DNA of 37,825 nucleotides from a virus. Shown here piece by piece: positions 4,578-37,676 of this stretch (position 1 is its first letter; each line of letters opens with the position of its first letter). The notes beneath the pieces are model-generated. The model worked only from the letters and a program-made list of their open reading frames with translations, did no database searches and had not been told where the DNA came from. Location of the stretch: positions 1 through 37,825 of IMG/VR virus record IMGVR_UViG_3300045988_165575; one strand, 5' to 3'. The translations under genes were made by a program, and so were the position numbers.

Positions 4578-6743
4578 TTACGTGAGCAGTTTCGCTGGGT
4601 TGCTACCAAACTGCGCATAAAGACCGTTATTGTTCACGAACAAGAGCGCGGTCTTGTTATCGCTGGTTGTTAATTTCAACGTAACTTCACCCGCTCTCGG
4701 CTGATAAAGGTCAAGTCTTGCTGTTACTTCGCTGTCTTTATTTCGTACCTCTATCGCTCCCGATGGAGTGTTAGTTTTGGGAATGCCCAACCCGAAGTCC
4801 ACCCGGCACACATTAAAAGCATCCTCGTCCGATAACCTACGATAGTGTTGCAATCCTGCGAACGTGTTGGTTTCAAAACTATTTGACACAAGCGTTCCAC
4901 TTGCCGCCGTTTTGCCCTTCGTTACAACAAAATACTCGCTCGACGAGCCGAATTTGTTTTCCGCACTACGAACGCGAAAGCCCTTATCCTCTTTGCACAC
5001 AACGTCCGTGTAAGCATCACCGCTGTCAATACGCACGCCTTTTGTGCTGTCAATGCAAATGTCATACGTCAAATTCGAAAAGGGGAAAGTCTGGCTGTCA
5101 ACAAATCCGATAAAACCCGATTTTGTTTCGCCAAGTTCTCTTTCTAATCCGAGTACAGGTAGAGGGCTTATTCCTAACGATACGTACCTGCTTGTATTGA
5201 TTATTTTAAGGTTGTATTTTGAGCCTTTAACACAAAAGACACCTGTAAGGTCTGCGTCGGACGCAATAATCTTTCCCGTGTCCAAGTTAAAGGAAAACTT
5301 CCCGGTCGGCGACGAGAGGATATCCGTAGTGATATAACTCGCGGATATTTTGTTCGCGGCAATGCTTCGGATAACCGCGTCACCGTCTTTTGATACACCG
5401 TACTCCCAGTTCGGGGATCCGTTGTTCCAACCGTTATTAGTCCAGGCATAACCGCCGGCGTTGCGGCAGTAGATAGTGTTGCTCCCCTCGAGCGTAGGCT
5501 TGTCATGGTAATAGGTTATAACCGCGCCGTTGCTGTCCGCTTTACGCGTGACATATAAGCCCATGCTGTTTGCGATGGTCTCGTTCAGCGCGAGGGTCGC
5601 CTGTTCGTAGTCGTTGATTTGCGCTACCTGTTGGGCGCGGGTCTGCTCGAGTACCGCCTGCTGCTTCGGTGTAAACGCGCCCATTGTGGCATATCCCGAC
5701 TGCGTTGCCGTTTCGCCCTTGCCCTCAAGCTTCGTGCAGCGGTTCTGTGACTGCCACTTGACATTTGTCAACACGACTTTCTTCGTCCCCTGAGCCGTCT
5801 CAAAGTTCATCACATCGAGCGGTCTGAGGTGCGGGAAAGAGTGTGTAGTGCAGGACATAGGCGTGTATGTAAGACTGCATCGCGCGGTTTTGAGTTCCGT
5901 CGCCAGTGTGCTGAGATTCATATCACTCTGCGCAAGGAGATTGCCCTCAATGTTAAAGGCATAGTCCTTTGTGCCCGCGAGGTATTCGGTCTTGTTCTCG
6001 TCGTTTCCGACGATGCGCACGCCGGAAAACACGATGTTATTTTCGGCAAAGTCTGTATTGCCGGAAGTAAAGCGATCTGAAGCTTTTATAACCGTGTGCT
6101 TGGCATTTGTCGCATACCACCCGCCTGTCAGCTTGCCATCATAGTCGATATACAGGCTCACGCCCATAAGCTCCGCAGCCCAGACAAGCACCTGACGATA
6201 GGTCAGATTGTCCGCCTCCGGGCGTTTTGGTATCGACACACCCCGATGCAAAGTGTTCGTCGGGAGTTTCTGCGACACCCCGCATTTTGTACAGGCATCG
6301 GCGATTATCTGATACAGTGTTGCAGGATAGGCAAGCTCAGTATCATAGGCTCGGTTGAACTTCGCCATGCGGTCATAAGCCGTTATTTTGATGCTTCTGA
6401 GCTTGCGCGGAGGGCTGTCCACCGTGTAATAGCCGATAGGCACTGTCTCCGTTGTCGAGCCCGTTGAAAAGCTTGTAGTGACATACAGCTGTGCGCCCTC
6501 GAACACCTTGTCGTCAAACGCGCCGTCGGTATTCTCAAGAGTAAAACTCATCTCTGACATACACGCCGAGCCCAAATCAAGCTTGCTGCCCGTGACACTC
6601 GACCAGTCCACCGTTACCGCGCCGATAATGTCTTTGTCGGTGATATTAAATGCCATGCCTTTGGTAGGCGTACAGAGAATATTGACTGACTGCACCACAT
6701 CCTCTCGCAGAGCCGCAAGCCCGGCAGAAGTTATTGGATACAT
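4578..6743 (-). CDS. Tail tip protein (Tal-like / prophage tail protein)
   Basis: 721 aa, positioned after the Dit-like gene and before the fibres. Confidence 0.55.
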   Translation of the reverse strand: MYPITSAGLAALREDVVQSVNILCTPTKGMAFNITDKDIIGAVTVDWSSVTGSKLDLGSACMSEMSFTLENTDGAFDDKVFEGAQLYVTTSFSTGSTTETVPIGYYTVDSPPRKLRSIKITAYDRMAKFNRAYDTELAYPATLYQIIADACTKCGVSQKLPTNTLHRGVSIPKRPEADNLTYRQVLVWAAELMGVSLYIDYDGKLTGGWYATNAKHTVIKASDRFTSGNTDFAENNIVFSGVRIVGNDENKTEYLAGTKDYAFNIEGNLLAQSDMNLSTLATELKTARCSLTYTPMSCTTHSFPHLRPLDVMNFETAQGTKKVVLTNVKWQSQNRCTKLEGKGETATQSGYATMGAFTPKQQAVLEQTRAQQVAQINDYEQATLALNETIANSMGLYVTRKADSNGAVITYYHDKPTLEGSNTIYCRNAGGYAWTNNGWNNGSPNWEYGVSKDGDAVIRSIAANKISASYITTDILSSPTGKFSFNLDTGKIIASDADLTGVFCVKGSKYNLKIINTSRYVSLGISPLPVLGLERELGETKSGFIGFVDSQTFPFSNLTYDICIDSTKGVRIDSGDAYTDVVCKEDKGFRVRSAENKFGSSSEYFVVTKGKTAASGTLVSNSFETNTFAGLQHYRRLSDEDAFNVCRVDFGLGIPKTNTPSGAIEVRNKDSEVTARLDLYQPRAGEVTLKLTTSDNKTALLFVNNNGLYAQFGSNPAKLLT

Positions 6744-7214: not shown

Positions 7215-7823
7215 ATGAAAAAATTCATTGCTTTACTTATCGCAGGTGTTTTGCTGATTGGGCTTTGCTGATGCGGCAATTCGGCAAACACCGATTCACT
7301 GTCCACCACTTCGAACGATATCAGCAAAGTCGATTTGCCGAATGACCATTACGGCGAGGGAATGTACAAGGTCGGAAAAGATATTCCTGCCGGAGAATAC
7401 TGGATAATCGCAACAGAAAAAGACTACTCGGGATATTTTTGCGTGTCGTCCGACAGTTCCGGAGATTCGATTATCTTTAATGAAAACTTTGACACTTGGG
7501 TTTATGTCACCGTCAAAAACGGCGAGTATATAGAGATTACGCGAGCGGAAATGTGTCCGTCGGAAAAAGCTCCAGATATGCATTTCAACAGTTCCGCCGT
7601 GCTCGAAGGGATTTACAAGATTGGAAAGGATCTTCCTGCCGGAGAGTACAAGCTCGTTGCCGCTGAGGTGGGAAACGACGGTTATTACGCCGTGCTGTCT
7701 AGTTCGTACAATTACAGCGACAACATCGTTGCCAACGATAACTTCAGCAACAATGCATATATCACTGTCCAAGATGGACAATATTTGCAGATTTCCAGAG
7801 CACTTGGCGAAAAAGTAGACTGA
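7215..7823 (+). pseudogene. Lipoprotein moron with an in-frame TGA (7269-7271) between signal peptide and mature domain
   Basis: The reading frame gives MKKFIALLIAGVLLIGLC-stop-CGNSANT..., in frame with the 162-aa ORF at 7335-7823. The mature part is a tandem duplication of a G.YK.GKD.PAGEY module. Confidence 0.65.
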
Positions 7824-7870: not shown

Positions 7871-10637
7871 ATTCGTTTATCGGAACGATTACTTTACCGG
7901 CGCGCATATTGACATTTCTAAGCTCGTTTACAATATCGCCGCGCTCGTTCATGACGACAATCGTTACGGTTCCGCCATTGCTTCTCTCCATAGCCCTTTC
8001 GACACCGCGCTCAACACCCAACGAAACGCCGTCCACAATTTGGCTGTTGTTGGCAACTGCTGTCCTGCCTCCGATTTGTCCAACCATCTCGGGTCCGCTC
8101 TCACGGGCAATAAAGAGTTGTCCGGTATCAGGATATCCGCCGGATGCATACTGCTGTGCCCCGGTAGATCGGGTTTTTACTGTCACATCGCAGCTTACAC
8201 CGTTTATATTGTTGATGTTATTTTTAAGCTTGACGAGCTGATCCGAATAATACTTAGTCTTTTTGCTTGCGTCGTCCATTGCAGCCGATGTGTTCTTAAT
8301 AGCTTTGCGCGACTGCTCTAAAGCGTCTTCGGCATGTTCGACTTCTTTTTTAAGCGCTCGATATTCCGGACTAAGCTTTTGCGATATCCAGTTCGCGACA
8401 TCACGAAGGCCATCTGATACGCCCTGATTTTTCTTGTCAAGTTCTGCCGCCTTTTCGTTCAGCTTATTTTGTGCCTCGGCAAGCCTATCTGACGCAACCT
8501 TGTAATTGTCAGTCGCCGTCTTGTTGTCAATTGTTGCTTGATAAAAGGCTTTGTATGATTCAGTAAGAATGTCTTGCATTGCAGCCATTTCAGCCTGTTT
8601 CTTCAAAGCCTCTATGACTCCGTAAATTGAGTCCTTAGTCTCCACAACCACGCCTTTGGTCTCGTCGATACTCAAATGCAATCCGTCGATATTCATGGCA
8701 TTCAGGGTGTCAACCTTGACGCGCATCAAGTCCATTTCATAGGCGGACTTATTTGACTTTTCGCTCAACTGATATATCTCGTCGGTGAGCATTTTAACTG
8801 CGCCGTACTCCGCGCTGACAGTGTTCAGCCCCTCTATCTTCTGATTAAGACCGTCCATATTTTCTTTTGTTCTTTGGATAATCGCCTCAGAGGCCGCAAT
8901 GTTTTCTGATAACACCTTATAGGCATCGGAGGATTGGTAGGTCTTTTCTGCAAGTTCATCTGCACCCTGTTCAAAACCTATGATAGCTCCCGTGATTGCA
9001 CCAATTGCCGCGACGACCAGTCCGGCCGGACCCAACGCCGCATACATAGCCACTGCAACGGCAGTAAGTCCTACTGCCATAACCGCCAGTTTGGCTTTGG
9101 CGTCTTCTGCGCCCGCGCCGAGTGCCTTAAAAGCGGACTTTGCCATCACCAGCGATGCTGCGAATCCTGCCGCGCCTATCATGGCTTTTTGAGTTGCCGA
9201 CAAACCCGCTCGGAACTGCTCCAAGCTGTCTTTGGCGGCACCCGCGGCTTTCTTCCATCCATAGCCTAACGCCTGCGCTGTGCTTCCTCCGGTCTCCTTT
9301 ATCCAAGAAAAACTCTCGGTAAAAGTAGAGACAACTCTCAGCCCCTTAAAGCTATTCCACACACCTTTTGCGCCGGAGTACCATTTGCGCAGCACCTTTA
9401 CGCCGAAAGCGGCGGCCGCGCCGGCTGCAACTCCCTTTATCACCGGCTCAAGCGCCGAGACTGTGGATTTCACCTTTTTAAGCTTCTGCTTCAGCTCCTC
9501 TGCGCGCTCTGCAAGCTTCGGGTCAATAACGCTGTCAGCGTTGGAAAATGGGCTCTTAAAATTGTTTCCTCCGCTCGATACCGTTGTGCTGCTTCCGCCG
9601 CCGTTGCCGCTATCAGATCCGGTGTCCGGCGTTCCGAGACGATTGATTTCATCGATGCCGAGCAAAGCGTTTTTATAATCCTTCGCCCTTTTCGCCGCAC
9701 TGCCGAGTTTTGTGGACACTTGCTGTGTACTGTTGGCGAGCTTGGAGGTATTTGACGATGTCCGGCTTGTTGCACTTGACGTACCAAACAATATAGCCAT
9801 GACTTGCCCGGCTTTTTCGGCGAGCGCGGTCAATCTTTCAAGCAACGCCGTAACATGCGGGATACACTGCTGCAAAGCCGGCGCAAACATTGACCCGAGC
9901 GCACTTGACAACATTTTTGTCTGAGCTTTCAAAGCAGCCTGCGCTCCTGCGAGGGTGTTCGCATATTTCGCGGCATCCCCGGTCTGGAATGCCGTCTCCC
10001 GCATGATGCCTTGTGTCGTGGCTATGCGCTTTTCTGCGTCGGTCAGCGTTGCTGCAGTCTTGCCTATCGATGCCGCGTATTCGTCCCATATAACGGACAG
10101 GTTTTTTGTAACGCCGGCGTTGTCGACAAGAATGCTGTTTTCGTTTTTGATACCTTCGGCTGCACTCTTTATAGCTTCGCCCATCGTCATACTGCCCTGA
10201 CGGTTAAACGCCGCCGAATCTTTAAGGTTAGTCAGTATGGACTGTGTCTGCTCGTCGGAATACCCTGTCGCCGCGAGGCTCTTATACGCGGTGTAGGCGT
10301 CCATCATCGGGATAAGACCGTCTTTGGTATACGATTTAAGCCACGCTTTCGCGGCGTTCAGGTCTTTTCCCTGCGCGGTCAATATGCTCGACAAGCCCAT
10401 CTGCGCGGCTTCGTTTTCCGCATATGCGTCCGTCAACTTCTTGACCTCGCTTACTACTTTCTGTATGGCCGCAACGGCAGCGGTAGTTTTTATGCCTGTA
10501 AAAAGCTTTCCGACACCCGCTCCCGTGCGCGTTGCCTGCTGTTCAAGCGACCCCAGTCTCTTGTTCGCCTTATCGATCTTGGCGTTAAAGTCCTTGGTGT
10601 TTGCTGTAATCAGCACTTGCAGTTCTTCAATCGTCAT
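7869..10637 (-). CDS. Tail tape measure protein
   Basis: About 920 aa of Ala/Gly-rich helical sequence with a central hydrophobic segment, located after the G/G-T genes. ATG 10637 (AGGTGAG RBS) is preferred over the track start at 10682, which has no RBS. Confidence 0.85.
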   Translation of the reverse strand: MTIEELQVLITANTKDFNAKIDKANKRLGSLEQQATRTGAGVGKLFTGIKTTAAVAAIQKVVSEVKKLTDAYAENEAAQMGLSSILTAQGKDLNAAKAWLKSYTKDGLIPMMDAYTAYKSLAATGYSDEQTQSILTNLKDSAAFNRQGSMTMGEAIKSAAEGIKNENSILVDNAGVTKNLSVIWDEYAASIGKTAATLTDAEKRIATTQGIMRETAFQTGDAAKYANTLAGAQAALKAQTKMLSSALGSMFAPALQQCIPHVTALLERLTALAEKAGQVMAILFGTSSATSRTSSNTSKLANSTQQVSTKLGSAAKRAKDYKNALLGIDEINRLGTPDTGSDSGNGGGSSTTVSSGGNNFKSPFSNADSVIDPKLAERAEELKQKLKKVKSTVSALEPVIKGVAAGAAAAFGVKVLRKWYSGAKGVWNSFKGLRVVSTFTESFSWIKETGGSTAQALGYGWKKAAGAAKDSLEQFRAGLSATQKAMIGAAGFAASLVMAKSAFKALGAGAEDAKAKLAVMAVGLTAVAVAMYAALGPAGLVVAAIGAITGAIIGFEQGADELAEKTYQSSDAYKVLSENIAASEAIIQRTKENMDGLNQKIEGLNTVSAEYGAVKMLTDEIYQLSEKSNKSAYEMDLMRVKVDTLNAMNIDGLHLSIDETKGVVVETKDSIYGVIEALKKQAEMAAMQDILTESYKAFYQATIDNKTATDNYKVASDRLAEAQNKLNEKAAELDKKNQGVSDGLRDVANWISQKLSPEYRALKKEVEHAEDALEQSRKAIKNTSAAMDDASKKTKYYSDQLVKLKNNINNINGVSCDVTVKTRSTGAQQYASGGYPDTGQLFIARESGPEMVGQIGGRTAVANNSQIVDGVSLGVERGVERAMERSNGGTVTIVVMNERGDIVNELRNVNMRAGKVIVPINE

Positions 10638-27478: not shown

Positions 27479-29062
27479 TCACGCTGCCGCGTGACTCTTC
27501 TTCTTTTTATTTCTGATGTACCCGCTCCATGCCTCGACAAAAGCCTCGACCTCCGGGGTCTTGCCGCAATTATTCAAACCTCGACACTGGATGATGCTCT
27601 CGGTTTTCGGGTTATATTCCAGAGTGTAAAAAGGCTTGTCCGGTTTGCTTTTCTTTCTGATAAAAAAGATAACCGTCTGCCCGCTCAGGTGTTTTTTGGC
27701 ATACGTCGCGACGCAGTGGTGCAGAGCGCTTCCCTCGTCGATAAGCTCGGCGTGACTTCGCGCCGGGCGAATCAACATGCCGCCGCTTTCAAAGGCAAAA
27801 TCCCGCTCAAGCTTTTTGAGATGTTTCTCAAATTTTTTCTGCGCTTCGCGCGTCTCTTCGAGCTCCTTTTGACGTCTTGCTTCCGCAAGGGCTTCGTTTG
27901 TGCGCTGGTGCGCCTGCGCGAGATTCGGTGGCAGGAGGATATCCTCGCGCTTGAGGTCAAGCTTGAGCTTTTCGCAATCTCGCCAGTAATCACAAAGCGT
28001 GTATATCGTTTCCTCCTGCTTGTCGAGATATTTAACCGCTTTTTTAAAAGGCAGACGCTTTTCAATCTGCGAGACGCAATAATCGTCAGAGGCGCTGTAC
28101 GCTATCGCCTGATCTGTTGTGATGCCGTACTTTTTGGCAAGCTGCGCATAAAGCACGGCATCGCGCGTTTTTTCGGGTAGTTCTCGCAACTCCTTTTTCG
28201 TCAGCCCGAGAGCCGCCGAAACGGTCTTCGCGCGGCGGTTGACAACTCCATTCGTCCACGAGTTATTGACCGCAAGCCTGATAAAGCCTTCCTTCACCAG
28301 TTTTTCCGTCAGTACCGGATATTTGACATATGTATCAAGCCAGCCGCAAGGATTTCCGCCGAAGTTTTCCATATATGCCGACATCTGCGCGTACTGCAAA
28401 TTGGTGTTTTTAAAAGTCTCGTCATTAAAGCCATAATAATGGTTTTCGGCATAATTTTTTTCGTCCGTATACCACGGCTGTCTTGAGCTTGGCTCCGGTA
28501 TGGTCGCCATGCGCTCCCAGTCCAGCTCCCAGCCGTGAAACCCATACGACCACCTTTTCGCCCACACAGCGTCAACGCCGGTGTTGTAATAGACCCGATA
28601 TTCCTCAAAAAAATTGGTCTTGACTGTTGTATAGTCCAGGCGGTAATCGCGCTCCACGAATCCCGCCCGGACGAGGATTCCGCCGTCCCGCAGCTTCGTG
28701 GCAAAAAGGATATATTTTTGGTCACACATATATTTTCTGCCTCTGCCGCTGTCGCGGAACTCGACCGTGCTTTTGCACGCCGGGCAAAAGCCTATTTCCT
28801 TGTGTTTGCAGTTGACATTTTGCACATCGGCGGCGCTGTATGTTCTGCCGAGCTCAAGCATCACATCTTTGTGGCAGTGCGTACAGTGTCCGTATCTGAC
28901 GCCGTTTTCGCGGTGCGTGAAGAGATAGCGGCTCCCCAGCAGGACGCTGTCGTCAACCCACTGCGCGACCTTTTTCGGCAGACCGTCGATCGACTTGGCA
29001 AAAGCCATTTTTTGGGCGTGCCGATACTGTTCTTCGGTGATTTTCTTCGCTTTTTGTCCCAT
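27479..29062 (-). CDS. PcfJ-like protein
   Basis: The C-terminus ELIDEGSALHHCVATYAKKHLSGQTVIFFIRK...IIQCRGLNN matches my recollection of the PcfJ-like domain. An N-terminal Cys/His cluster is also present. Confidence 0.6.
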   Translation of the reverse strand: MGQKAKKITEEQYRHAQKMAFAKSIDGLPKKVAQWVDDSVLLGSRYLFTHRENGVRYGHCTHCHKDVMLELGRTYSAADVQNVNCKHKEIGFCPACKSTVEFRDSGRGRKYMCDQKYILFATKLRDGGILVRAGFVERDYRLDYTTVKTNFFEEYRVYYNTGVDAVWAKRWSYGFHGWELDWERMATIPEPSSRQPWYTDEKNYAENHYYGFNDETFKNTNLQYAQMSAYMENFGGNPCGWLDTYVKYPVLTEKLVKEGFIRLAVNNSWTNGVVNRRAKTVSAALGLTKKELRELPEKTRDAVLYAQLAKKYGITTDQAIAYSASDDYCVSQIEKRLPFKKAVKYLDKQEETIYTLCDYWRDCEKLKLDLKREDILLPPNLAQAHQRTNEALAEARRQKELEETREAQKKFEKHLKKLERDFAFESGGMLIRPARSHAELIDEGSALHHCVATYAKKHLSGQTVIFFIRKKSKPDKPFYTLEYNPKTESIIQCRGLNNCGKTPEVEAFVEAWSGYIRNKKKKSHAAA

Positions 29063-31277: not shown

Positions 31278-31436
31278 TCAAAATATGTCACGAATATAAA
31301 TGCATACCCACAGCGCAACATTAAGCCAGCCCAAAAAAGCGTGCACTTTTTTGTATCTTTCATCGCCCGGGCACAGACTCGTTACGCTACAAAATATCGA
31401 CATCACCAGCACGGCGATGCAGGTGTTTTTGCTCAC
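31278..31436 (-). CDS. 52-aa small membrane protein with two hydrophobic segments
   Basis: The GTG start overlaps the upstream TGA as GTGA, with GGAGG 7 nt upstream. It is below the ORF-track cutoff. Confidence 0.4.
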   Translation of the reverse strand: MSKNTCIAVLVMSIFCSVTSLCPGDERYKKVHAFLGWLNVALWVCIYIRDIF

Positions 31437-31972
31437 TTCGCCGCCTCCTCAAAAAATCGGTGTCCGCCGATTGTGCAGACATAGATCTGCGATTCGTGCC
31501 ATAAACTCTGGCAGAGCGCCGGAGCATAAAAATAAAGTATTTCGCGATCTGTCGCAGTCTCACCGTCGTCAAAAACCTTGGCGACGGCTTTTTTGACCTC
31601 GTCGCTCGGCTCGGGTCGGGCGGCGGTGTAGCCAAAGCTGCGGACGATTTCGAGCGGCCGCTTGTCCTCCTGCTCGCAGGCGTTAAGTATGCATTGGGCG
31701 ACCGCCATCTGACCTATATACGGCTCGGCTCCCGCCTCAGCCATGACTACCCGCTCGATTTCGTCGCGCTCGGCGGCGGTCAGGGCGTATCTAATGTTTG
31801 CAGTTGACTGCAAAACCGTTTCCGGCTCTGCTTCTGTCGCTGTTTCCGACTCGGTCGGCTCGACATAGTAAACATCCGGCATCGCGCTCGTTATCTCCGG
31901 CAGAGCCGCAAGAAGCATAATCGCCACCAGCGCGACGACCGCGCCGATGATAAGCAAGTCTTTAGTCATCAT
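31433..31972 (-). CDS. SleB-like cell wall hydrolase with an N-terminal signal anchor
   Basis: The TM segment is LLIIGAVVALVAIMLLAAL, followed by ERVVMAEAGAEPYIGQMAVAQCILNA. The start is ATG 31972, with an AAGGGGG RBS. Confidence 0.6.
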   Translation of the reverse strand: MMTKDLLIIGAVVALVAIMLLAALPEITSAMPDVYYVEPTESETATEAEPETVLQSTANIRYALTAAERDEIERVVMAEAGAEPYIGQMAVAQCILNACEQEDKRPLEIVRSFGYTAARPEPSDEVKKAVAKVFDDGETATDREILYFYAPALCQSLWHESQIYVCTIGGHRFFEEAAK

Positions 31973-32297
31973 TGCCAGCCCCCTTGTGCATCGGATTAAC
32001 AATAGTCAGCCTTGTGGTGTGCCGGTTTGCTAAAGTAACAAGGTTGTCCGCTGCGCCAAGCACGTCTTTAACGGTAAGCCCAGCTTTATCGGCGGAATCC
32101 TCAACAGCTGATATTGCCAGTTTGCAGGCTGCTACAATTACACACATGTCCGATGTTCCGATTCCGCCGAAAGCATTTAAAATCTCTTGCGCGAGCATTA
32201 CGCTAAGCAATTCGGACATCGTTGCCGCTTTGTCGATATCGCCACTTTTTAAATAGTGGACTTTGGCATCGTGAGCTTCTTTTAAGCTTTTAATCAT
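31962..32297 (-). CDS. Hypothetical protein
   Basis: The start was moved to ATG 32297, with an AAAGGAAG RBS. 111 aa. Confidence 0.5.
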   Translation of the reverse strand: MIKSLKEAHDAKVHYLKSGDIDKAATMSELLSVMLAQEILNAFGGIGTSDMCVIVAACKLAISAVEDSADKAGLTVKDVLGAADNLVTLANRHTTRLTIVNPMHKGAGNDD

Positions 32298-32320
32298 TTT
32301 CTTTTCTTCCTTTCTTTTCT

Positions 32321-32476
32321 TTATGCCGTCTTTCTTTTTTTGAGCCACAGCTCGTATTCTTCTCTGACGCCCGGAATTTCAAAATACCGTTCTACCGCGC
32401 GAAGCGTTGACCGGGCTAAATGCGTCATCTCGCTGTCAGGCACCGCCGACAGGTCGAGTTCTGCCGTTTGGGACAT
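32321..32476 (-). CDS. 51-aa hypothetical protein (MSQTAELDLS...WLKKRKTA)
   Basis: ATG 32476 has GGAG 8 nt upstream. It is below the ORF-track cutoff. Confidence 0.45.
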   Translation of the reverse strand: MSQTAELDLSAVPDSEMTHLARSTLRAVERYFEIPGVREEYELWLKKRKTA

Positions 32477-32494
32477 CGCAGGAACTCCTTTCTC

Positions 32495-32524
32495 GTTGTT
32501 TTATTTCTTTTTGTGTGATATACT
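32495..32524 (+). promoter_or_regulatory. Promoter-like repeat copy A (TTGTTT-N17-TATACT with TGa)
   Basis: 28 of 30 positions match 32935-32964. It lies upstream of the small plus-strand TM ORF. Confidence 0.5.
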
Positions 32525-32548
32525 TTCTCTTGAAAGGGGGTGATTGAC

Positions 32549-32728
32549 TTGTCATATAAGCGGTATTATCTTCCCGGTGTCGATGAGATTCATCAGCTGG
32601 TCGAGACACCTGCCTCAAAAGAGAAAACAGATCGGATTCGCTTCGTCGTTACTGTAGTCGTTTCCGTTGTAGCAACAATAGCCTCTATTGTTGCTGCTGT
32701 TTTCGGGGCTCTTGCTTACTTTGGTTAA
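32549..32728 (+). CDS. 59-aa tail-anchored membrane protein
   Basis: The TTG start lies 8 nt after AAAGGGGG. The C-terminal TM is FVVTVVVSVVATIASIVAAVFGALAYF. Confidence 0.4.
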   Translation: MSYKRYYLPGVDEIHQLVETPASKEKTDRIRFVVTVVVSVVATIASIVAAVFGALAYFG

Positions 32729-32934
32729 GACAGTTACAATGCCACAACCCACGCCGGTCTCTGCCGCAGTTGCTATTTCCGCGGCAGTACGCCGGCTGTG
32801 TAAGCGTAACGGTTTCGATTCGATGAGTTTTTGCGTATATGATTGCCGTCATATGCGCAAAAGCTTTTTTTACTCGTTTATCAAACTTTGTCATAGTCCC
32901 ACCTCTCTTTCATTTACAAAGCTCCTTTCATGCG

Positions 32935-32964
32935 GTTGTTTTATTTCTTTTTATGTGTTATACT
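32935..32964 (+). promoter_or_regulatory. Promoter-like repeat copy B, upstream of the Abi-alpha-like gene
   Basis: TTGTTT, a 17-nt spacer ending in TGt, and TATACT. It is a near-copy of 32495-32524. Confidence 0.5.
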
Positions 32965-33026
32965 TAATTTGTATATTCGCTTATTGAAACAGTTTTCAAT
33001 TGGCAAAAGAAAGGAATATGATATAA

Positions 33027-33797
33027 ATGGATACAAACATTGGATTAGGCGGCACAATTGAAAAAGCTTACGATGATCTTGTTCATCCGTCGGCGAAAAG
33101 AATCGGAGAGATTGTCAGTTTATTACCTCGTGCCATAGGCGTTGCTTTGACACCTCTTGAAAAATATGTGCTGAACGGAGAGTACTCATTAAAGGCAACA
33201 AAAAAGCTATTGGAAGAGAAACTTAAAGATGTTGACCCCGAACAAATAAAGACTCCTGAAGCCTATGTTGCAGTGCCTGCATTACAAGCAATCGCCTATA
33301 CTACCGACAATGAGACATTACGAGACTTATTCGCCAATCTGTTGGCGAAAGCAATGCAAGAAGATACTGCTGATACGGTTCATCCCGCATTTGTCGAGAT
33401 AATAAAGCAACTATCCCCTGACGATGCCTACACTTTGAAATGTTTTAAGAACTCACATAATCTCCCAATCGTCAATATCTGCGGAAATCCGCCTATCGCA
33501 ACGGAAAAGATTTCTGGTTTTTCAAATGTACACATCGTTCTTCATCAAAATGTATTCATTGCAAATTCGGAAATTGGCGATATAGGCAGACAAAGTACAT
33601 CAATTACATCACTTGATCGCCTTGGACTTGTTGACATAAGCTTTGATGGTTCAAGTCTCACAACGAGCTATGATGAATTTGAAAAATTGGCAATTTTCAA
33701 AAACAGCTTTAGCAATGTAATGCGAAAAGTTTATATTGAAAAAGGTCGAGCCTGCTTGAATCCATTCGGAGAGGCATTCATTAATGTCTGTCTTTAA
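33027..33797 (+). CDS. Abi-alpha (DUF4393)-like abortive infection candidate
   Basis: The N-terminus IEKAYDDLVHPSAKRIGEIV..., followed by LFANLLAKAM and HPAFVEIIKQLSPDDA, matches my recollection of the family. The gene looks AT-rich by eye. Confidence 0.55.
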   Translation: MDTNIGLGGTIEKAYDDLVHPSAKRIGEIVSLLPRAIGVALTPLEKYVLNGEYSLKATKKLLEEKLKDVDPEQIKTPEAYVAVPALQAIAYTTDNETLRDLFANLLAKAMQEDTADTVHPAFVEIIKQLSPDDAYTLKCFKNSHNLPIVNICGNPPIATEKISGFSNVHIVLHQNVFIANSEIGDIGRQSTSITSLDRLGLVDISFDGSSLTTSYDEFEKLAIFKNSFSNVMRKVYIEKGRACLNPFGEAFINVCL

Positions 33798-33954
33798 TGA
33801 CTTTCTCGATATACCTTTCAACAAATTCGGTGAGCATACGAGTCAACTCTTCGTTTTGCTTACCGATTTTTTTTTGCGCAGCAGACCAAAACCACTTCAA
33901 CCACAATATTGTCACTGCGCTTGATGTTATAACGGCTATTAGCATGTTGAGCAT
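33781..33954 (-). CDS. 57-aa small membrane protein
   Basis: ATG 33954 has AGGAG 8 nt upstream. The N-terminal TM is MLIAVITSSAVTILWLKWFW. It is convergent with the Abi gene and overlaps it by 17 nt. Confidence 0.45.
   Translation of the reverse strand: MLNMLIAVITSSAVTILWLKWFWSAAQKKIGKQNEELTRMLTEFVERYIEKVIKDRH
33827..33875 (+). terminator. Terminator of the Abi-alpha-like cassette
   Basis: tcggtgagca (33827-33836) pairs with tgcttaccga (33857-33866) at 9 of 10 positions and is followed by nine T residues. Confidence 0.6.
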
Positions 33955-34048
33955 AGTTTCATCTCCTTTCTTATTGCATTAATTTCATTTTCTTGCCATT
34001 CGCCTTTTGTGGCAGAGAGGGGTTAATTACACTGACCAAATATTTTAT

Positions 34049-34357
34049 TCAGTCCTCTGCAAACATCGCCATTTCAACGGCGTTGGCTATCATCGCGCGC
34101 ACGAAGTGTTCAAACTCCTTGTGCTGCATTACTCCGCCATGCTCGTTGTATTCAACCAGCGCCTGCGGTCGTATGTCGTAGCACCATTCTTTCTCGCGGA
34201 TATACGCGGTTCCGATCGGCAGCGCCTGCTTCTGCAGTCCGTTATAGATAAAGTCTTTCGGTCGTCCGAGATACCTCGCGGCCATCTCAACCGGCACGCT
34301 GCCGTCAATCGCGAGGATTTCTTCTTTTGTAGGCTTCGGTTTCAAAACTCGCGGCAT
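34049..34357 (-). CDS. Excisionase-like HTH DNA-binding protein
   Basis: VEMAARYLGRPKDFIYNGLQKQALPIGTAY resembles the HTH_17/excisionase-type small phage proteins. A GGAGG RBS precedes the start. Confidence 0.45.
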   Translation of the reverse strand: MPRVLKPKPTKEEILAIDGSVPVEMAARYLGRPKDFIYNGLQKQALPIGTAYIREKEWCYDIRPQALVEYNEHGGVMQHKEFEHFVRAMIANAVEMAMFAED

Positions 34358-34444
34358 TTTATGTACCTCCTTTTAAGTGATTGTAGTATGAAAATTTTTG
34401 TTTTTCTCCCCACCTCGTTTTCTTTTTTCAGCTTCTTTCTTCGG

Positions 34445-34678
34445 TTAACTGTAACTTGCGTTTTCACAAGTCGATGAGTAAAAAAAATAAAAGGAGACTC
34501 TTTCGACCGGCTCGCCTATAATCTCAAGTATTTTGAACATTTCGCTTTGCGTGAACTCCCTTGCACCGCAGAGCTTGCGGTTAATCGTCGCTTCGCTTTT
34601 TCCGACGCTTTTTGCAAGGCTTTTCTGGGTTATACCTCTTTGCCTCATTGCGCCGAGCAAATTTGAGTAATCATACAT
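34445..34678 (-). CDS. cro: Cro-like XRE-family repressor
   Basis: The HTH region is ITQKSLAKSVGKSEATINRKL. It is divergent from cI. The start is ATG 34678, with a GGAGGTGA RBS. Confidence 0.75.
   Translation of the reverse strand: MYDYSNLLGAMRQRGITQKSLAKSVGKSEATINRKLCGAREFTQSEMFKILEIIGEPVERVSFYFFYSSTCENASYS
34454..34471. promoter_or_regulatory. Operator copy ACTTGcgttttcaCAAGT inside the cro 3' end
   Basis: It is an exact copy of 34713-34730, with 5-bp inverted arms. Confidence 0.6.
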
Positions 34679-34704
34679 TATCGCTTTCACCTCCTTTTGG
34701 TTCG

Positions 34705-34733
34705 ATTATATCACTTGCGTTTTCACAAGTCAA
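34705..34733 (-). promoter_or_regulatory. Early lytic (cro) promoter
   Basis: On the minus strand: TTGACT, a 17-nt spacer ending in TGa, and TATAAT. Confidence 0.7.
34713..34730. promoter_or_regulatory. Operator ACTTG-N8-CAAGT in the cI/cro intergenic region
   Basis: It occupies the spacer and the -35 edge of the cro promoter. Half-site copies lie at 34738-34748 and 34773-34784. Confidence 0.65.
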
Positions 34734-34774
34734 TACTTTTTCACAAGTTTTTCAAAAGTTTTTTTCGTTTTTAC

Positions 34775-34803
34775 TTGCGTTTTCGTTGGCTTTGTGATAT
34801 TGT
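34775..34803 (+). promoter_or_regulatory. Repressor (cI) promoter
   Basis: TTGCGT, a 17-nt spacer ending in TGa, and TATTGT. It overlaps an operator half-site. Confidence 0.5.
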
Positions 34804-34821
34804 ATAGGCGAGGTGATCAAT

Positions 34822-35478
34822 ATGCCAAGCTTTGCAGAAAGATTAAATGAAGCCTTAGAACGCAGAAATATGACCGCAGCGGAACTTGCGAGAGCGTTGA
34901 ATGTCGCTGACGCTACAATAAGCAATTATAAAAAAGGAATCTACGCACCAAAACAAAGAAGAACTGAAGAAATATCAAAAATTTTAAATGTATCTATTCC
35001 GTGGTTAATGGGTGCAGATGTTCCCATGAAGCCGCTAAACCTCGTTTCTCCGAATGTGACCGAAGATGTTGTTACGTTCCCGGTAATAGGCAATATTGCT
35101 GCCGGATATGAAGAAATTGCAGTCGAGGATTGGAGCGGCGAAACCATAGATGTCCCACGCTCTTTTCTCAAGGGACGAAGCAAATCCGACTTTTTTGTTC
35201 TAAAGGTACACGGTGATTCAATGTACCCGACATACCACACTGACGATAAAGTCCTCATTCTTCGGCAAACCTTTATTGAGCGCAGCGGAGATGTTGGTGC
35301 CGTTATTTACGACAGCGAATGTGCGACACTCAAGCGTATCGATATCTTTGATGGCATGGTTAGGCTCAGCCCCCTCAATCCGTCATATCCGCCCAAAGAG
35401 TTAACCGGCACGGATCTCGAGCACTATCGCATCCTGGGCATACCGTATCTTCTTGTAAGGGAGATAATTAAAAACTAA
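34822..35478 (+). CDS. cI: cI/LexA-like repressor (HTH plus S24 peptidase domain)
   Basis: The HTH region is TAAELARALNVADATISNYKKG. The S24 motifs are HGDSMYPT and a downstream Lys. The start is ATG 34822, with a GAGGTGA RBS. Confidence 0.85.
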   Translation: MPSFAERLNEALERRNMTAAELARALNVADATISNYKKGIYAPKQRRTEEISKILNVSIPWLMGADVPMKPLNLVSPNVTEDVVTFPVIGNIAAGYEEIAVEDWSGETIDVPRSFLKGRSKSDFFVLKVHGDSMYPTYHTDDKVLILRQTFIERSGDVGAVIYDSECATLKRIDIFDGMVRLSPLNPSYPPKELTGTDLEHYRILGIPYLLVREIIKN

Positions 35479-35640: not shown

Positions 35641-36492
35641 ATGACTTCTGAAATAACCACATATAATGAGCAAATTTTTGAGGACATAAAACATATTAAC
35701 GACGACGGGCAGGAATATTGGCTTGCAAGAGAGCTTCAGACCGTTTTGGATTACACACAGTGGCGCCGTTTTTCAGATACGATTGAACGAGCAAAACTCG
35801 CCTGCAAGAACAGCGGATTTGCAATTGATGACCATTTTGCCGACGTTGGCAAAATGGTTGACATCGGCTCTGGCGCGGAGCGCGAGGTGGATGATGTTAT
35901 GCTTTCCAGGTATGCATGTTATCTGATTGTCATGAACGGGGATCCTCGCAAAGAAGTAATAGCTCTCGGGCAATCATACTTTGCCGTAAAAACGCGCCAG
36001 CAAGAGCTCATTGACAATTACGAAGAGCTGACCGAAGATCAGAAGAGGCTTGCCATTCGAAACGAGATGAAGCGCCACAATACAGCTCTTGCAAACGCCG
36101 CGCACGATGCCGGAATCATTGACCCCAAAGACTATGCAATCTTTCAGAATAAAGGATATCAAGGTCTCTACGGCGGTCTCGGTGCTAAAGATATTCACCG
36201 TCGAAAGGGATTAAAAAAGAGTCAAAATATTCTCGACCACATGGGCAGCACAGAACTCGCCGCCAATCTCTTTCGTGCAACTCAAACGGAAGAAAAGCTT
36301 CGCAGAGAAAATGTTCGCGGCAAAGAAAAGGCAAATCAAACGCACTATGATGTTGGAAGAAAAGTGAGAAAGACCATAGAAGAACTCGGCGGAGTCATGC
36401 CCGAGAATTTGCCGACACCCGAAAAGAGTATAGAGCAAATCAAAAGAGCAGAGGAGAAAAAACGCATTTCAGAAAAGACAAAAGATAAATAA
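35641..36492 (+). CDS. dinD: DNA damage-inducible protein D (DinD)-like protein
   Basis: WLARELQTVLDY..W..F...IERAK..C...G, LSRYACYLIVMNGDPRKE and QSYFAVKTR resemble DinD. Confidence 0.65.
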   Translation: MTSEITTYNEQIFEDIKHINDDGQEYWLARELQTVLDYTQWRRFSDTIERAKLACKNSGFAIDDHFADVGKMVDIGSGAEREVDDVMLSRYACYLIVMNGDPRKEVIALGQSYFAVKTRQQELIDNYEELTEDQKRLAIRNEMKRHNTALANAAHDAGIIDPKDYAIFQNKGYQGLYGGLGAKDIHRRKGLKKSQNILDHMGSTELAANLFRATQTEEKLRRENVRGKEKANQTHYDVGRKVRKTIEELGGVMPENLPTPEKSIEQIKRAEEKKRISEKTKDK

Positions 36493-36617
36493 AAGAACCC
36501 CCGGTGCTGGAACACCGAGGGCTCAAGAAAATCAACACACACCTACGACAGAGTGGATTGATATATTTATTATATCACCCGCTCTGAGGAAACACAAGTA
36601 AAGGAGCGGTGTTTTTT

Positions 36618-37676
36618 ATGAAAAATCCAAACGGATATGGAACGATCCGCAAACTCAGCGGAAACCGGCGCAAACCCTGGGCTGTTCTTGCTCCGCAGAG
36701 CAGCTCCGAATATTCCCTCGAAAAGCAACGCAAGCTGATAGGCTGCTACGCCACGAGGGCAGAGGCAATGACAGCTCTCGGCGCATGGCATAAGACTCCG
36801 CATCTTGATGTTCCGGCTTCTGCCGAAAACATCACACTCGCACAGCTGTGCGCCGAATATAAAAAATTACAGAAATTCAAGAATCTCGCGAAACAGACAC
36901 AGGATAATTATAATGCCGCATGGAACAAGCTTTCTGTACTCGGTTCATATAAAGTAAAAGATTTGCGAGCCGCCCATTTCCAGACAGTCGTTGACACGGC
37001 ACATCAGAACGGACTCTCCGCCTCTTCTCTGCAAAAAATAAAACTCTTCGCTTCCCTGCTTTGTGATTACGCCGTGCAAAATGACATTGTTGTCAAAAAT
37101 TATGCAAGCTTCGTCACCCTCCCAAAAGCAGAAACGAAAGAAAAGGTACCGTTCAGCGATCTCGATTTGCAAAAACTCGAGTCCGCCGCAAAGGCAGGCT
37201 TTATGTACGCAGACCTAATTCTGATTATGTGCTACACGGGTTGGAGAATCAATGAATTTTTGGCACTTACGCCGTTCAGCTGGGATGCCGCAAATCATAC
37301 TCTTCGCGGCGGCGAAAAGACCGAAGCCGGAAAGAATAGAGTTGTCCCGGTCTCCGATAAAGTAATGCCGTATCTGCAAAAGTGGCTCGATAAAGGTGGA
37401 CCGACAATAGTTTGCCATGAGCACAACGGCAAACTCGTCCCGGTAACAGCGCGCTACTTTCGCGCAAAATGGTACTACCCTACACTTGAGGCGCTCGACT
37501 TGCCTCGCCTGACGCCACACGCGACCAGGCACACATTTGCTTCTATGTTGCACCGCAACGGCGCCGATAAATGGGATATTCAGCGACTCATGGGACATTC
37601 TTCGGAAGTCGTTACCAATAAAGTCTACACCCATGTTGACATCGATCAGCTTCAAAAAGCGGTCAATTTGTTATAA
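36618..37676 (+). CDS. int: Tyrosine integrase
   Basis: The C-terminal catalytic region is HATRHTFASMLHRNGADKWDIQRLMGHSS...VYTHV. The gene is adjacent to attR. ATG 36618 is preferred over GTG 36609. Confidence 0.9.
   Translation: MKNPNGYGTIRKLSGNRRKPWAVLAPQSSSEYSLEKQRKLIGCYATRAEAMTALGAWHKTPHLDVPASAENITLAQLCAEYKKLQKFKNLAKQTQDNYNAAWNKLSVLGSYKVKDLRAAHFQTVVDTAHQNGLSASSLQKIKLFASLLCDYAVQNDIVVKNYASFVTLPKAETKEKVPFSDLDLQKLESAAKAGFMYADLILIMCYTGWRINEFLALTPFSWDAANHTLRGGEKTEAGKNRVVPVSDKVMPYLQKWLDKGGPTIVCHEHNGKLVPVTARYFRAKWYYPTLEALDLPRLTPHATRHTFASMLHRNGADKWDIQRLMGHSSEVVTNKVYTHVDIDQLQKAVNLL

What the first reader, a model, noticed from the sequence alone, without database searches (positions are those of the whole stretch)
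32935..33954. Abi-alpha-like defence cassette embedded antisense in the early lytic operon
The 256-aa plus-strand gene has its own promoter, a terminator (33827-33875) and visibly AT-rich sequence. Its sequence resembles the Abi-alpha/DUF4393 abortive-infection family. It lies between cro-proximal early genes and the replication genes, all of which are read from the opposite strand. Its 3' end and terminator overlap a convergent 57-aa membrane-protein ORF of the lytic transcript. Transcription from the cro promoter would therefore run head-on through the Abi gene. This offers a built-in way to silence the prophage's own abortive-infection gene once it commits to lysis, while the gene stays on in lysogens to abort infection by other phages.
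Basis: partly seen in the sequence, partly recalled or inferred. Interest (0 to 1): 0.6.

Follow-up and report, generated by a model that had tools for sequence, protein, structure and literature searches.

The report
Prophage Abi-alpha gene nested antisense
A gut-bacterium prophage carries a real Abi-alpha anti-phage gene pointing backwards inside its own early lytic operon. This layout is already known from staphylococcal phage 80α, so the finding is sound but mostly ordinary.

Summary
ORF 33027-33797 (+) encodes a 256-aa protein that matches Pfam Abi_alpha end to end (E=3e-47, 161.6 bits, cutoff 29) and PADLOC PDC-S47 (E=2.5e-74). It has an extended -10 promoter and a strand-asymmetric intrinsic terminator. 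Its GC content is 39%, against 49% for the window. It lies antisense between minus-strand early genes read from a near-consensus cro promoter. Its 3' end and terminator overlap a real 57-aa membrane-protein gene (dN/dS about 0.2).

Close relatives lack exactly window 32828-33956, which holds the promoter, Abi, the terminator and the 57-aa gene. It is therefore a discrete 1.13-kb cassette.

The proposed regulation is a known concept, the "noncontiguous operon". Published RNA-seq shows that 80α orf19, its DUF4393 homologue, switches transcription on induction. A survey of 39 Abi_alpha clusters shows the antisense placement is typical of the family. Silencing in this prophage is inferred, not shown.

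Two things are new. A portable 31-nt promoter heads at least seven different antisense cargo genes in related prophages. Small convergent ORFs also recur at Abi_alpha 3' ends. These could be Ith-like self-immunity factors, but the pairing is not obligate.

Verdict: new member of a known kind, with moderate interest.

The parts
32828..33956 (.). 1.13-kb indel cassette holding the Abi promoter, the abi gene, its terminator and the entire 57-aa gene.
   Evidence: Relatives L109, L110 and L114 share cI, cro and p102 at 99-100% identity. They have about 33 nt in place of this stretch, and the homology breakpoints fall at window 32827 and 33957. GC content is 38.0%.
32936..32964 (+). Abi promoter: -35 TTGTTT, 17-nt spacer, extended -10 TGTTATACT.
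   Evidence: It is one copy of the 31-nt element at 32935-32965 and is 94% identical to 32495-32525, where no copy is expected by chance. Equivalent strong or extended -10 promoters precede Abi_alpha genes in L014, L015, L017, 80α and a Latilactobacillus phage.
33027..33797 (+). The abi gene, encoding a 256-aa Abi_alpha (DUF4393) protein.
   Evidence: Pfam PF14337 E=3e-47 and PADLOC PDC-S47 E=2.5e-74. The identical protein occurs on 79 contigs. dN/dS is 0.07 against L014. The AlphaFold2 model has pLDDT 81.7, and its only significant structural match is 3H35.
33827..33876 (+). Intrinsic terminator of abi (hairpin followed by U9), located inside the 57-aa ORF of the opposite strand.
   Evidence: It folds at -19.8 kcal/mol with z = -5.5. 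It is conserved, with compensatory and G·U changes. On the lytic strand it is weaker (-13.9 kcal/mol) and has no U-run.
33781..33954 (-). 57-aa early lytic-strand gene ('tm57') with an N-terminal membrane helix and a charged C-terminal helix. It overlaps the abi 3' end by 17 nt.
   Evidence: The ORF and its RBS are visible. It is 56-61% identical in L014 and L015. dN/dS is about 0.2 and Kyte-Doolittle hydropathy is 1.95. It matches no known family.
32495..32525 (+). Second copy of the portable promoter, driving the neighbouring 59-aa antisense gene.
   Evidence: The same element precedes seven different cargo genes in relatives.
32549..32728 (+). Second antisense cassette gene, encoding a 59-aa C-terminally anchored membrane protein (TTG start).
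   Evidence: It is called as a gene in all sibling contigs. The exact protein occurs on 633 contigs. Kyte-Doolittle hydropathy is 2.68. It is present or absent independently of Abi.
32825..32873 (+). Terminator of the 59-aa unit: a 19-bp hairpin followed by T7.
   Evidence: It folds at -25.8 kcal/mol with z = -5.8 on the + strand and at -15.0 kcal/mol on the - strand.
32685..32894 (-). 69-aa lytic-strand ORF with a strong RBS, overlapping the terminator of the 59-aa unit. Its coding status is uncertain.
   Evidence: The ORF and a GAGAGGTGG RBS are visible. Gene callers did not call it, and the exact sequence is not in the protein collection. A shortened version follows the shared RBS in L109.
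34705..34733 (-). Early lytic (cro) promoter TTGACT-17-TATAAT with an upstream TG, overlapped by an operator.
   Evidence: It is the best promoter match in the region, at 11 of 12. The operator ACTTGCGTTTTCACAAGT lies at 34713-34730.
34445..34690 (-). cro-like gene (DUF739/HTH_3), the first gene of the lytic operon.
   Evidence: Pfam DUF739 E=6.9e-9.
34049..34357 (-). 102-aa early gene (phrog_6058) lying between cro and the 57-aa gene.
   Evidence: It is conserved in relatives with and without the cassette.
34813..35478 (+). CI-type repressor (HTH plus S24 peptidase), on the same strand as abi.
   Evidence: Pfam Peptidase_S24 E=6.9e-20 and HTH_3 E=1.2e-10.

Best explanation
This is a moron-type defence cassette in a temperate phage of a human-gut member of the Oscillospirales (Acutalibacteraceae-like). 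It is arranged as a 'noncontiguous operon'.

**In the lysogen.** CI keeps the cro promoter off. The abi gene is transcribed from its own extended -10 promoter, which has no recognisable operator. Transcription stops at an intrinsic terminator just past the stop codon. The Abi-alpha protein then stands guard and aborts infection by other phages. In the only tested homologue this works by causing premature lysis, and the biochemistry is unknown.

**On induction.** Transcription from the cro promoter about 0.9 kb away runs through cro, the 102-aa gene and the 57-aa gene. It then continues head-on across abi and its promoter toward the downstream early genes. Because abi is antisense, this read-through makes no abi mRNA. 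Polymerase collisions or sense/antisense RNA pairing should also lower abi expression. The terminator hairpin is weaker on the lytic strand and lies inside the translated 57-aa ORF there, so it should not stop the lytic transcript.

**What is shown:** gene identity, promoter and terminator motifs, nesting, cassette boundaries and recurrence of the layout.

**What is inferred:** expression in lysogeny, silencing on induction and the defence phenotype.
For: - **Family identity:**
- **Promoter and terminator:**
- **Read-through:** no lytic-strand terminator is predicted between the cro promoter and the cassette, and no operator lies near the abi promoter.
- **Discrete cassette:** it is absent from near-identical relatives and present in prophages with two different lysogeny modules. 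It is also found in otherwise unrelated backbones, always one or two genes after cro.
- **Layout recurs in annotated phages:** 80α gp19, phi4B1 XO26_0009 and a Latilactobacillus phage each carry a lone reverse-strand DUF4393 gene inside a lytic operon.
- **Layout recurs in a survey:** of 39 Abi_alpha clusters from 79 viral contigs, 26 have an opposite-strand upstream flank and 3 a same-strand one (p=1.5e-5). Both flanks are opposite in 13 clusters and both co-directional in 3 (p=0.02).
- **Literature on Abiα:** it is a single prophage gene with its own mapped transcription start, it is constitutively expressed, and it causes abortive infection with early lysis (PMC6356687).
- **Literature on the architecture:** 80α orf19 switches transcription on induction within a noncontiguous operon (PMC11087260). 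The φNM1 homologue is the most abundant prophage protein in lysogens.
Against: - No expression data exist for this prophage. The promoter, the terminator and read-through are all predictions.
- Abi protein made before induction would persist, and in φNM1 its level did not change significantly during infection of the lysogen. Transcriptional silencing alone therefore cannot protect the phage. The orientation may matter mainly by preventing over-expression.
- A natural variant (L161) has lost 679 bp of abi while keeping everything else. Abi is therefore dispensable for the phage.
- The downstream-flank bias in the survey is not significant (18 against 13).
- The survey used crude ORF calls rather than a gene finder.
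- This protein is only about 25-40% identical to the homologues with experimental data, so the defence phenotype is extrapolated.
Confidence: 0.6

Rival explanations
1. The orientation provides insulation only. It keeps abi out of the lytic transcript and under its own constitutive promoter, and active silencing has no biological role. The phage is intrinsically blind to its own Abi because it lacks the trigger.
For: - The Abi protein pool is abundant and stable in the φNM1 lysogen.
- Abiα's only known target was an unrelated Picovirinae phage.
- Natural deletion of abi in L161 leaves the rest intact.
- In Rostøl et al., antisense transcription made only a 'minor' contribution compared with the protein inhibitor.
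Against: - The orientation bias is strong across the family.
- 80α orf19 does show a clear transcriptional switch.
- The two models are not exclusive, and the same sequence features fit both.
Confidence: 0.3
2. This is a two-gene defence and self-immunity module. The small convergent overlapping gene (tm57) is made only from the lytic transcript and neutralises Abi when the prophage induces. It would be analogous to Ith inhibiting Tha in 80α.
For: - tm57 is lost together with abi in the cassette indel.
- The pair is the only island of homology with L014 and L015.
- tm57 is under purifying selection.
- tm57-like genes lie beside Abi_alpha genes that are only 37-54% identical (L017, L023, L074, L177-180).
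- Two other small-ORF families occupy the same convergent position in other Abi_alpha clades, and partner type follows the Abi tree.
- 80α has an unannotated 38-aa ORF in the same position.
- There is a precedent for a small overlapping antisense inhibitor.
Against: - tm57-like genes occur without any Abi_alpha in L151-158 and L173-176, and beside a different 232-aa antisense gene in L170 and L172.
- About 24 of 39 Abi_alpha clusters show no such partner.
- Abiα alone gives the phenotype. That does not argue against an inhibitor, but it shows no partner is required.
- A recombination hotspot just after cro explains the co-occurrence equally well.
Confidence: 0.2
3. The small lytic-strand ORFs matter mainly because they are translated. 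Ribosomes moving through the terminator hairpin would keep the lytic transcript from terminating there. One hairpin could then stop abi transcription on one strand without blocking the lytic operon on the other.
For: - Both + strand terminators in the window lie inside lytic-strand ORFs: 33827-33876 in tm57 and 32825-32873 in the 69-aa ORF.
- The hairpin still folds on the lytic strand at -13.9 to -20.3 kcal/mol.
- The same format recurs in L109.
Against: - tm57's amino-acid sequence is itself conserved (dN/dS about 0.2), which translation alone does not require.
- The lytic strand has no proper U-run after the hairpin, so termination there may be negligible anyway.
Confidence: 0.15
4. The protein is not a defence factor in this phage. 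It would serve the phage's own biology instead, for example control of lysis timing or a DNA-binding role.
For: - The mechanism of Abi_alpha is unknown.
- The tested phenotype is altered lysis timing.
- The C-terminal half gives weak, non-significant winged-helix-like structural matches.
Against: - It has its own promoter on the lysogeny strand, a moron-like composition and patchy presence among near-identical phages.
- These features fit an accessory gene expressed in lysogeny, not a core lytic function.
- L161 shows it is dispensable.
Confidence: 0.07

Closest known systems
Abiα (EF2833) of Enterococcus faecalis V583 prophage 6, the founder of Pfam Abi_alpha/DUF4393 (Lossouarn et al. 2019, PMC6356687)
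   Same: Both belong to the same Pfam family, with a full-length match here. Both are single genes of about 260-270 aa carried on a prophage with their own promoter. The structural similarity to PDB 3H35 reported for EF2833 is reproduced here.
   Different: The host is different (gut Oscillospirales against Enterococcus), and the sequences are distant. No phenotype data exist for this gene. The orientation of EF2833 relative to its neighbours could not be checked with these tools.
Staphylococcus phage 80α gp19/orf19 and φNM1 A0EWI8, DUF4393 genes in a 'noncontiguous operon' (Rostøl et al. 2024, PMC11087260; bioRxiv 10.1101/2025.10.23.684294)
   Same: Same family (35% identity over 67% of the query). 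Same layout: a lone reverse-strand gene with an extended -10 promoter nested in the cro-driven early operon. These homologues are shown to be expressed in lysogeny and to switch on induction.
   Different: In 80α the gene lies further from cro, between DUF968 and the replication initiator. Its convergent neighbour is a 224-aa gene plus only an unannotated 38-aa ORF. The gene here is part of a cassette array with a shared promoter.
Tha/Ith of S. aureus prophages, a defence gene with a small overlapping antisense inhibitor (PMC11087260)
   Same: In both, a prophage defence gene is overlapped by a small gene on the opposite strand, and the two are expected to be expressed in opposite life-cycle states.
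   Different: Tha is a HEPN RNase within the cI operon, and Ith is the nested antisense gene. Here the defence gene is the nested one and the small gene belongs to the lytic operon. There is no sequence similarity. An inhibitor role for tm57 is untested, and its co-occurrence with Abi is not obligate.
Morons, the promoter-gene-terminator units of temperate phages (established concept; own knowledge: Juhala et al. 2000)
   Same: It has its own promoter and terminator, a lower GC content than its surroundings, and is precisely present or absent among close relatives.
   Different: Classical morons were described mostly in late regions and often co-directional with their neighbours. This one is antisense in the early operon, shares a portable promoter with sister cassettes and carries a lytic-strand gene within its boundaries.

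Membership tests
Abi_alpha (Pfam PF14337 / DUF4393) | Full-length profile match above the curated gathering score. | tested here: met
   161.6 bits against a cutoff of 29, E=3e-47, covering profile positions 3-196 of 196. 409 homologues were found, and all 120 listed carry PF14337.
Abi_alpha (Pfam PF14337 / DUF4393) | Single-gene system of about 250-290 aa, carried on a prophage. | tested here: met
   The protein is 256 aa. It sits in a prophage with integrase, CI, cro, TerL and related genes.
Abi_alpha (Pfam PF14337 / DUF4393) | Fold related to PDB 3H35 / DUF2806, as reported for EF2833. | tested here: met
   The AlphaFold2 model (pLDDT 81.7) matches 3H35 at E=4e-4. This was the only hit with E ≤ 0.001; two other 3H35 chains scored 1.2e-3 and 2.8e-3.
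Abi_alpha (Pfam PF14337 / DUF4393) | Own promoter and constitutive expression in the lysogen. | tested here: inconclusive
   An extended -10 promoter motif is present and is duplicated and conserved. Expression itself cannot be tested from sequence.
Abi_alpha (Pfam PF14337 / DUF4393) | Abortive-infection phenotype: normal adsorption, reduced centres of infection, death of the infected cell and premature lysis. | not testable with these tools
   Known only for EF2833.
PADLOC PDC-S47 (candidate defence system) | Match to the PDC-S47 profile HMM. | tested here: met
   PDLC05025 E=2.5e-74, residues 9-256 against profile positions 17-261 of 263.
Noncontiguous operon (antisense gene nested in an operon) | A gene in opposite orientation flanked on both sides by genes of one operon. 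| tested here: met
   Minus-strand genes lie on both sides, and the layout is conserved in siblings.
Noncontiguous operon (antisense gene nested in an operon) | The nested gene has its own promoter. | tested here: met
   The motif TTGTTT-17-TGTTATACT is present. This rests on the motif alone.
Noncontiguous operon (antisense gene nested in an operon) | The operon transcript overlaps the nested gene. | tested here: inconclusive
   No lytic-strand terminator is predicted between the cro promoter and 32000. The hairpin is weaker and lacks a U-run on that strand. No RNA data are available.
Noncontiguous operon (antisense gene nested in an operon) | Reciprocal expression of the operon and the nested gene. 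| not testable with these tools
   Shown only for the homologue 80α orf19.
Moron | A promoter-gene-terminator unit of atypical composition that is present or absent among close relatives. | tested here: met
Tha/Ith-type defence-inhibitor pair | A small gene overlapping the defence gene on the opposite strand. | tested here: met
   The overlap is 17 nt, and the small ORF is under purifying selection.
Tha/Ith-type defence-inhibitor pair | The small gene consistently accompanies the defence gene. | tested here: not met
   tm57-like genes occur without Abi (L151-158, L173-176) or beside a different antisense gene (L170, L172). Many Abi_alpha clusters lack a partner.
Tha/Ith-type defence-inhibitor pair | The small protein inhibits the defence protein. 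| not testable with these tools

The most novel reading that the evidence does not exclude
Abi-alpha genes may commonly travel as two-gene modules. The small lytic-strand gene that converges on and overlaps the abi 3' end would be the phage's own anti-Abi factor. In this window that gene is the 57-aa membrane protein, and two unrelated small-protein families fill the same position in other Abi_alpha clades. The factor would be made only once the cro promoter fires, like Ith for Tha. Copies found without Abi in related phages would then act as counter-defence against Abi-carrying lysogens. Separately, a portable 31-nt promoter may act as a shared head and recombination joint for interchangeable antisense cargo in the early operon of these gut prophages.
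Probability: 0.2. Interest if true: 0.7.

Novelty: new member of a known kind. Interest (0 to 1): 0.35.

Why it matters
The base finding adds one more well-documented example of a defence gene nested antisense in a lytic operon. This example comes from uncultured human-gut Clostridia rather than from Staphylococcus.

It also shows that this placement is the usual one for the whole Abi_alpha family. That supports the view that gene orientation itself ties prophage immunity to the life cycle.

The comparative data give two concrete, testable leads:
- Small convergent genes at Abi_alpha 3' ends may be candidate self-immunity or counter-defence factors. The mechanism and trigger of Abi_alpha are still unknown, and an inhibitor would be a useful handle on them.
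- A shared promoter marks a hotspot of swappable antisense cargo. Most of that cargo is small membrane proteins of unknown function, which makes the promoter a practical way to find new prophage-encoded exclusion or defence genes.

Tried and rejected
- **DNA search of the phage collection.** blastn with the 3.6-kb region against the annotated phage collection found nothing.
- **Host identification.** The scan of GTDB species-representative genomes found no close relative, only a 30% match. The host could be inferred only from names attached to neighbouring proteins, which point to Acutalibacteraceae/Oscillospiraceae MAGs.
- **Rfam.** No RNA family matched in 32000-35000.
- **Fold search.** It gave no mechanistic lead beyond the uncharacterised 3H35. 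The MarR, CodY and winged-helix hits were not significant.
- **Generic promoter and terminator scan.** It missed the real terminator because of its loop-length limit. It also proposed a promoter at 32993-33022 that ends 5 nt before the start codon, which I rejected in favour of the duplicated extended -10 element.
- **First orientation survey.** The version with 45-aa ORFs was too noisy and misclassified a locus identical to the window. I replaced it with ORFs of at least 80 aa, 3-kb flanks and clustering at 70% identity.
- **Other cargo genes.** Pfam and PADLOC scans of the other promoter-led cargo genes and of the small partner ORFs gave only DUF2513 for one cargo.
- **Obligate Abi partner.** I considered this for tm57 and downgraded it after finding tm57-like genes without Abi.
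- **Recombination between the two promoter copies.** I rejected this as the origin of the Abi indel. The breakpoints at 32827 and 33957 do not coincide with the repeats.
Full report
**1. What is there**

The window is a prophage. The lysogeny module lies on the + strand at the right end:
- tyrosine integrase at 36609-37676
- a Bro-N/DinD-like gene at 35641-36492
- an S24-type CI repressor at 34813-35478

Everything from cro (34690-34445) leftward is on the minus strand. This includes a replication initiator at 24967-24212, a DNA methyltransferase and the large terminase at 20125-18893.

Inside this minus-strand block, ORF 33027-33797 (+) encodes a 256-aa protein. It matches:
- Pfam Abi_alpha (PF14337, formerly DUF4393) over the whole profile at E=3e-47, 161.6 bits against a cutoff of 29
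- the PADLOC candidate system PDC-S47 at E=2.5e-74
- phrog_2232 at E=4.9e-51

A database search returned 409 homologues, and all 120 listed carry the same domain.

**2. Promoter, terminator and composition**

*Promoter.* About 70 nt upstream of the start codon lies TTGTTT, a 17-nt spacer, then TGTTATACT, an extended -10 promoter. It sits in a 31-nt element (32935-32965) that is repeated at 94% identity at 32495-32525, where no copy is expected by chance. The generic scan instead reported a weaker site that ends 5 nt before the ATG, which I reject.

*Terminator.* Just past the stop codon, the hairpin at 33827-33866 folds at -19.8 kcal/mol (z = -5.5) and is followed by U9.
- Across five lineages 98.7% of hairpin positions stay paired. 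Two pairs show compensatory changes.
- Ten of 75 cells are G·U pairs that would be mismatches on the other strand.
- In three lineages the hairpin is 5-7 kcal/mol stronger on the abi-sense strand, and only that strand has the U-run.

*Composition.* The ORF is 39.4% GC against 49.2% for the window, in the lowest 2% of same-sized windows.

**3. The convergent 57-aa gene**

ORF 33954-33781 (-) has a strong AAAGGAG ribosome-binding site and an N-terminal hydrophobic helix. It overlaps abi by 17 nt and contains the abi terminator within its coding sequence.

It is a real gene. Homologues in diverged cassettes are 56-61% identical. dN/dS is about 0.2 with synonymous sites saturated, against 0.4-1.2 in the other five frames. 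For abi the value is 0.07.

**4. Head-on transcription is the expected outcome**

The best promoter in the region is the cro promoter (34733-34705, TTGACT-17-TATAAT with TG, 11 of 12 matches). It is overlapped by an 18-nt palindromic operator that recurs just after cro.

No terminator is predicted on the lytic strand between this promoter and the genes beyond the cassette. No operator-like site lies near the abi promoter.

**5. It is a discrete cassette**

The identical Abi protein occurs on at least 79 human-gut metagenome contigs. These are prophages with two quite different lysogeny modules. One has a tyrosine integrase, S24 CI and Bro-N. The other has a serine recombinase, a 118-aa HTH protein and a 341-aa protein.

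Relatives that share cI, cro and the 102-aa gene at 99-100% identity lack exactly window 32828-33956. In its place they carry about 33 nt. The missing 1129 bp holds the promoter, abi, the terminator and the whole 57-aa ORF up to its start codon. The ribosome-binding site just outside is shared, and in those relatives it serves the next lytic gene.

Diverged versions (Abi 78-83% identical) sit in otherwise unrelated prophage backbones. Homology there is limited to abi plus the small ORF, and the pair always lies one or two genes after cro.

One natural variant (L161) has a 679-bp internal deletion of abi with everything else intact.

**6. The layout is typical of the family and already described**

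In three unrelated annotated phages the DUF4393 gene is a lone reverse-strand gene inside a lytic operon. These are Staphylococcus 80α (gp19), Bacillus phi4B1 and a Latilactobacillus phage. Each has a strong promoter directly upstream.

I surveyed 79 viral contigs, which collapse to 39 clusters at 70% identity:

| Flank measure | Opposite strand | Same strand | p |
|---|---|---|---|
| Upstream 3 kb | 26 clusters | 3 clusters | 1.5e-5 |
| Both flanks | 13 clusters | 3 clusters | 0.02 |

This survey rests on simple ORF calls and is approximate.

The literature supplies the experiments:
- Abiα (EF2833) of E. faecalis prophage 6 is a single gene with its own mapped transcription start. It is constitutively expressed in lysogeny and aborts a Picovirinae phage with lysis about 10 min early. 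The mechanism is unknown (PMC6356687).
- Rostøl et al. describe 'noncontiguous operons' in 80α. [quoted passage not shown]
- In φNM1 lysogens the DUF4393 protein is 42% of all prophage protein.

In this prophage it remains an inference.

**7. Caveat on the self-protection logic**

Turning off transcription does not remove protein already made. In φNM1 the protein level did not change significantly during infection of the lysogen.

The phage must therefore be insensitive to its own Abi, encode an inhibitor, or both. The safest statement is that the antisense orientation guarantees lytic read-through never produces abi mRNA, with active interference as a likely extra.

**8. What goes beyond the finding**

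*(a) A portable promoter heading different cargo genes.* The 31-nt promoter element, allowing a few mismatches, precedes at least seven different antisense cargo genes in related prophages:
- Abi_alpha
- a 59-aa tail-anchored membrane protein (in this window at 32549-32728, with its own terminator at 32825-32873)
- a 194-aa protein
- a 128-aa DUF2513 protein
- a 133-aa protein
- a 77-aa protein
- a 55-aa protein

Several of these are membrane proteins. The stretch just after cro is thus a hotspot of swappable antisense cassettes.

*(b) Small convergent ORFs at Abi_alpha 3' ends.* Small lytic-strand ORFs that overlap or abut the abi 3' end recur in about 15 of 39 Abi_alpha clusters. They fall into at least three families: tm57-like, a soluble coiled-coil type and a two-helix membrane type. 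Each family is found only at that position among the loci held, and partner type follows the Abi tree.

This recalls Tha/Ith, where a small overlapping antisense gene inhibits the defence protein.

I then searched from the tm57-like family outward as a fair test:
- an adjacent Abi_alpha in three lineages
- a different antisense gene in the slot in one lineage
- no antisense gene at all in two lineages

The link is strong but not obligate. A hotspot explanation is at least as good as an inhibitor role, to which I give about 0.2.

A further possibility is that translation of these small ORFs through the hairpin keeps the lytic transcript from terminating.

**9. Verdict**

The thing itself is a new member of a known kind.

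Interest is moderate (0.35). It rests mainly on the cassette-array and small-partner leads rather than on the Abi gene or its orientation.

Noticed in passing
window 35641-36492 (+): The Bro-N/DinD-like gene between cI and the integrase matches the PADLOC candidate defence system PDC-S13 at E=1e-124, and phrog_8036. It is probably a second gene of this prophage that is expressed in lysogeny and acts in defence.
   Followed up: no
window 34454-34471 and 34713-34730: Two exact copies of the palindromic sequence ACTTGCGTTTTCACAAGT lie 259 bp apart. One overlaps the -35 of the cro promoter and the other sits just after the cro stop codon. A half-site-like copy lies near 34773-34790. These are probably CI/Cro operators spaced for looping.
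   Followed up: partly
window 32495-32873 (+), with the 69-aa ORF at 32894-32685 (-): A second antisense cassette uses the same promoter. It consists of a 59-aa tail-anchored membrane gene and a very strong terminator (-25.8 kcal/mol). That terminator is again embedded in a lytic-strand ORF with a strong RBS whose coding status is unclear. The 59-aa protein occurs on more than 600 contigs.
   Followed up: partly
L109 2274-3660, L020 about 5220-5680, L125 and L132: In related prophages the same promoter element heads other antisense cargo. These are a DUF2513 protein and orphan proteins of 194, 133, 77 and 55 aa. Most have a membrane helix and none has a defence annotation.
   Followed up: partly
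L011 (80α) 7659-7775 (-), record about 8408-8524: An unannotated 38-aa ORF lies on the lytic strand of 80α. Its start overlaps the gp18 stop codon and its end overlaps the 3' end of gp19 (DUF4393) by 8 nt. Its N-terminus is hydrophobic. It resembles the 57-aa gene in position and shape but could be a chance ORF.
   Followed up: no
L161 3161-3240: This is a natural knockout. A 679-bp internal deletion of abi (window 33041-33719) leaves the promoter, the first 14 nt, the last 78 nt, the terminator and the 57-aa gene in place.
   Followed up: yes
L151-L158 4001-4192: A 63-aa variant of the 57-aa protein occurs in a different prophage integrated next to rpmB/groES, with no Abi gene. There the hairpin persists, but the A9 run (the U9 of the abi terminator) has decayed to A5.
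   Followed up: partly
window 31433-32002 (-) and 27479-29062 (-): The early operon carries a SleB-like cell-wall hydrolase (Hydrolase_2). It also carries PcfJ/PcfK-like and DUF3102 genes, which are better known from conjugative elements. This is unusual content for a phage early region.
   Followed up: no
L014 10713-11696: The relative that carries the 83%-identical Abi cassette also has an Abi_2 (PF07751) gene just outside its integrase.
   Followed up: no
L006 and L010 9031-11328: In prophages with the serine-recombinase module, the recombinase is called as a single 765-aa protein fused to a response-regulator domain. This suggests integration into, or read-through with, a host two-component regulator gene.
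   Followed up: no
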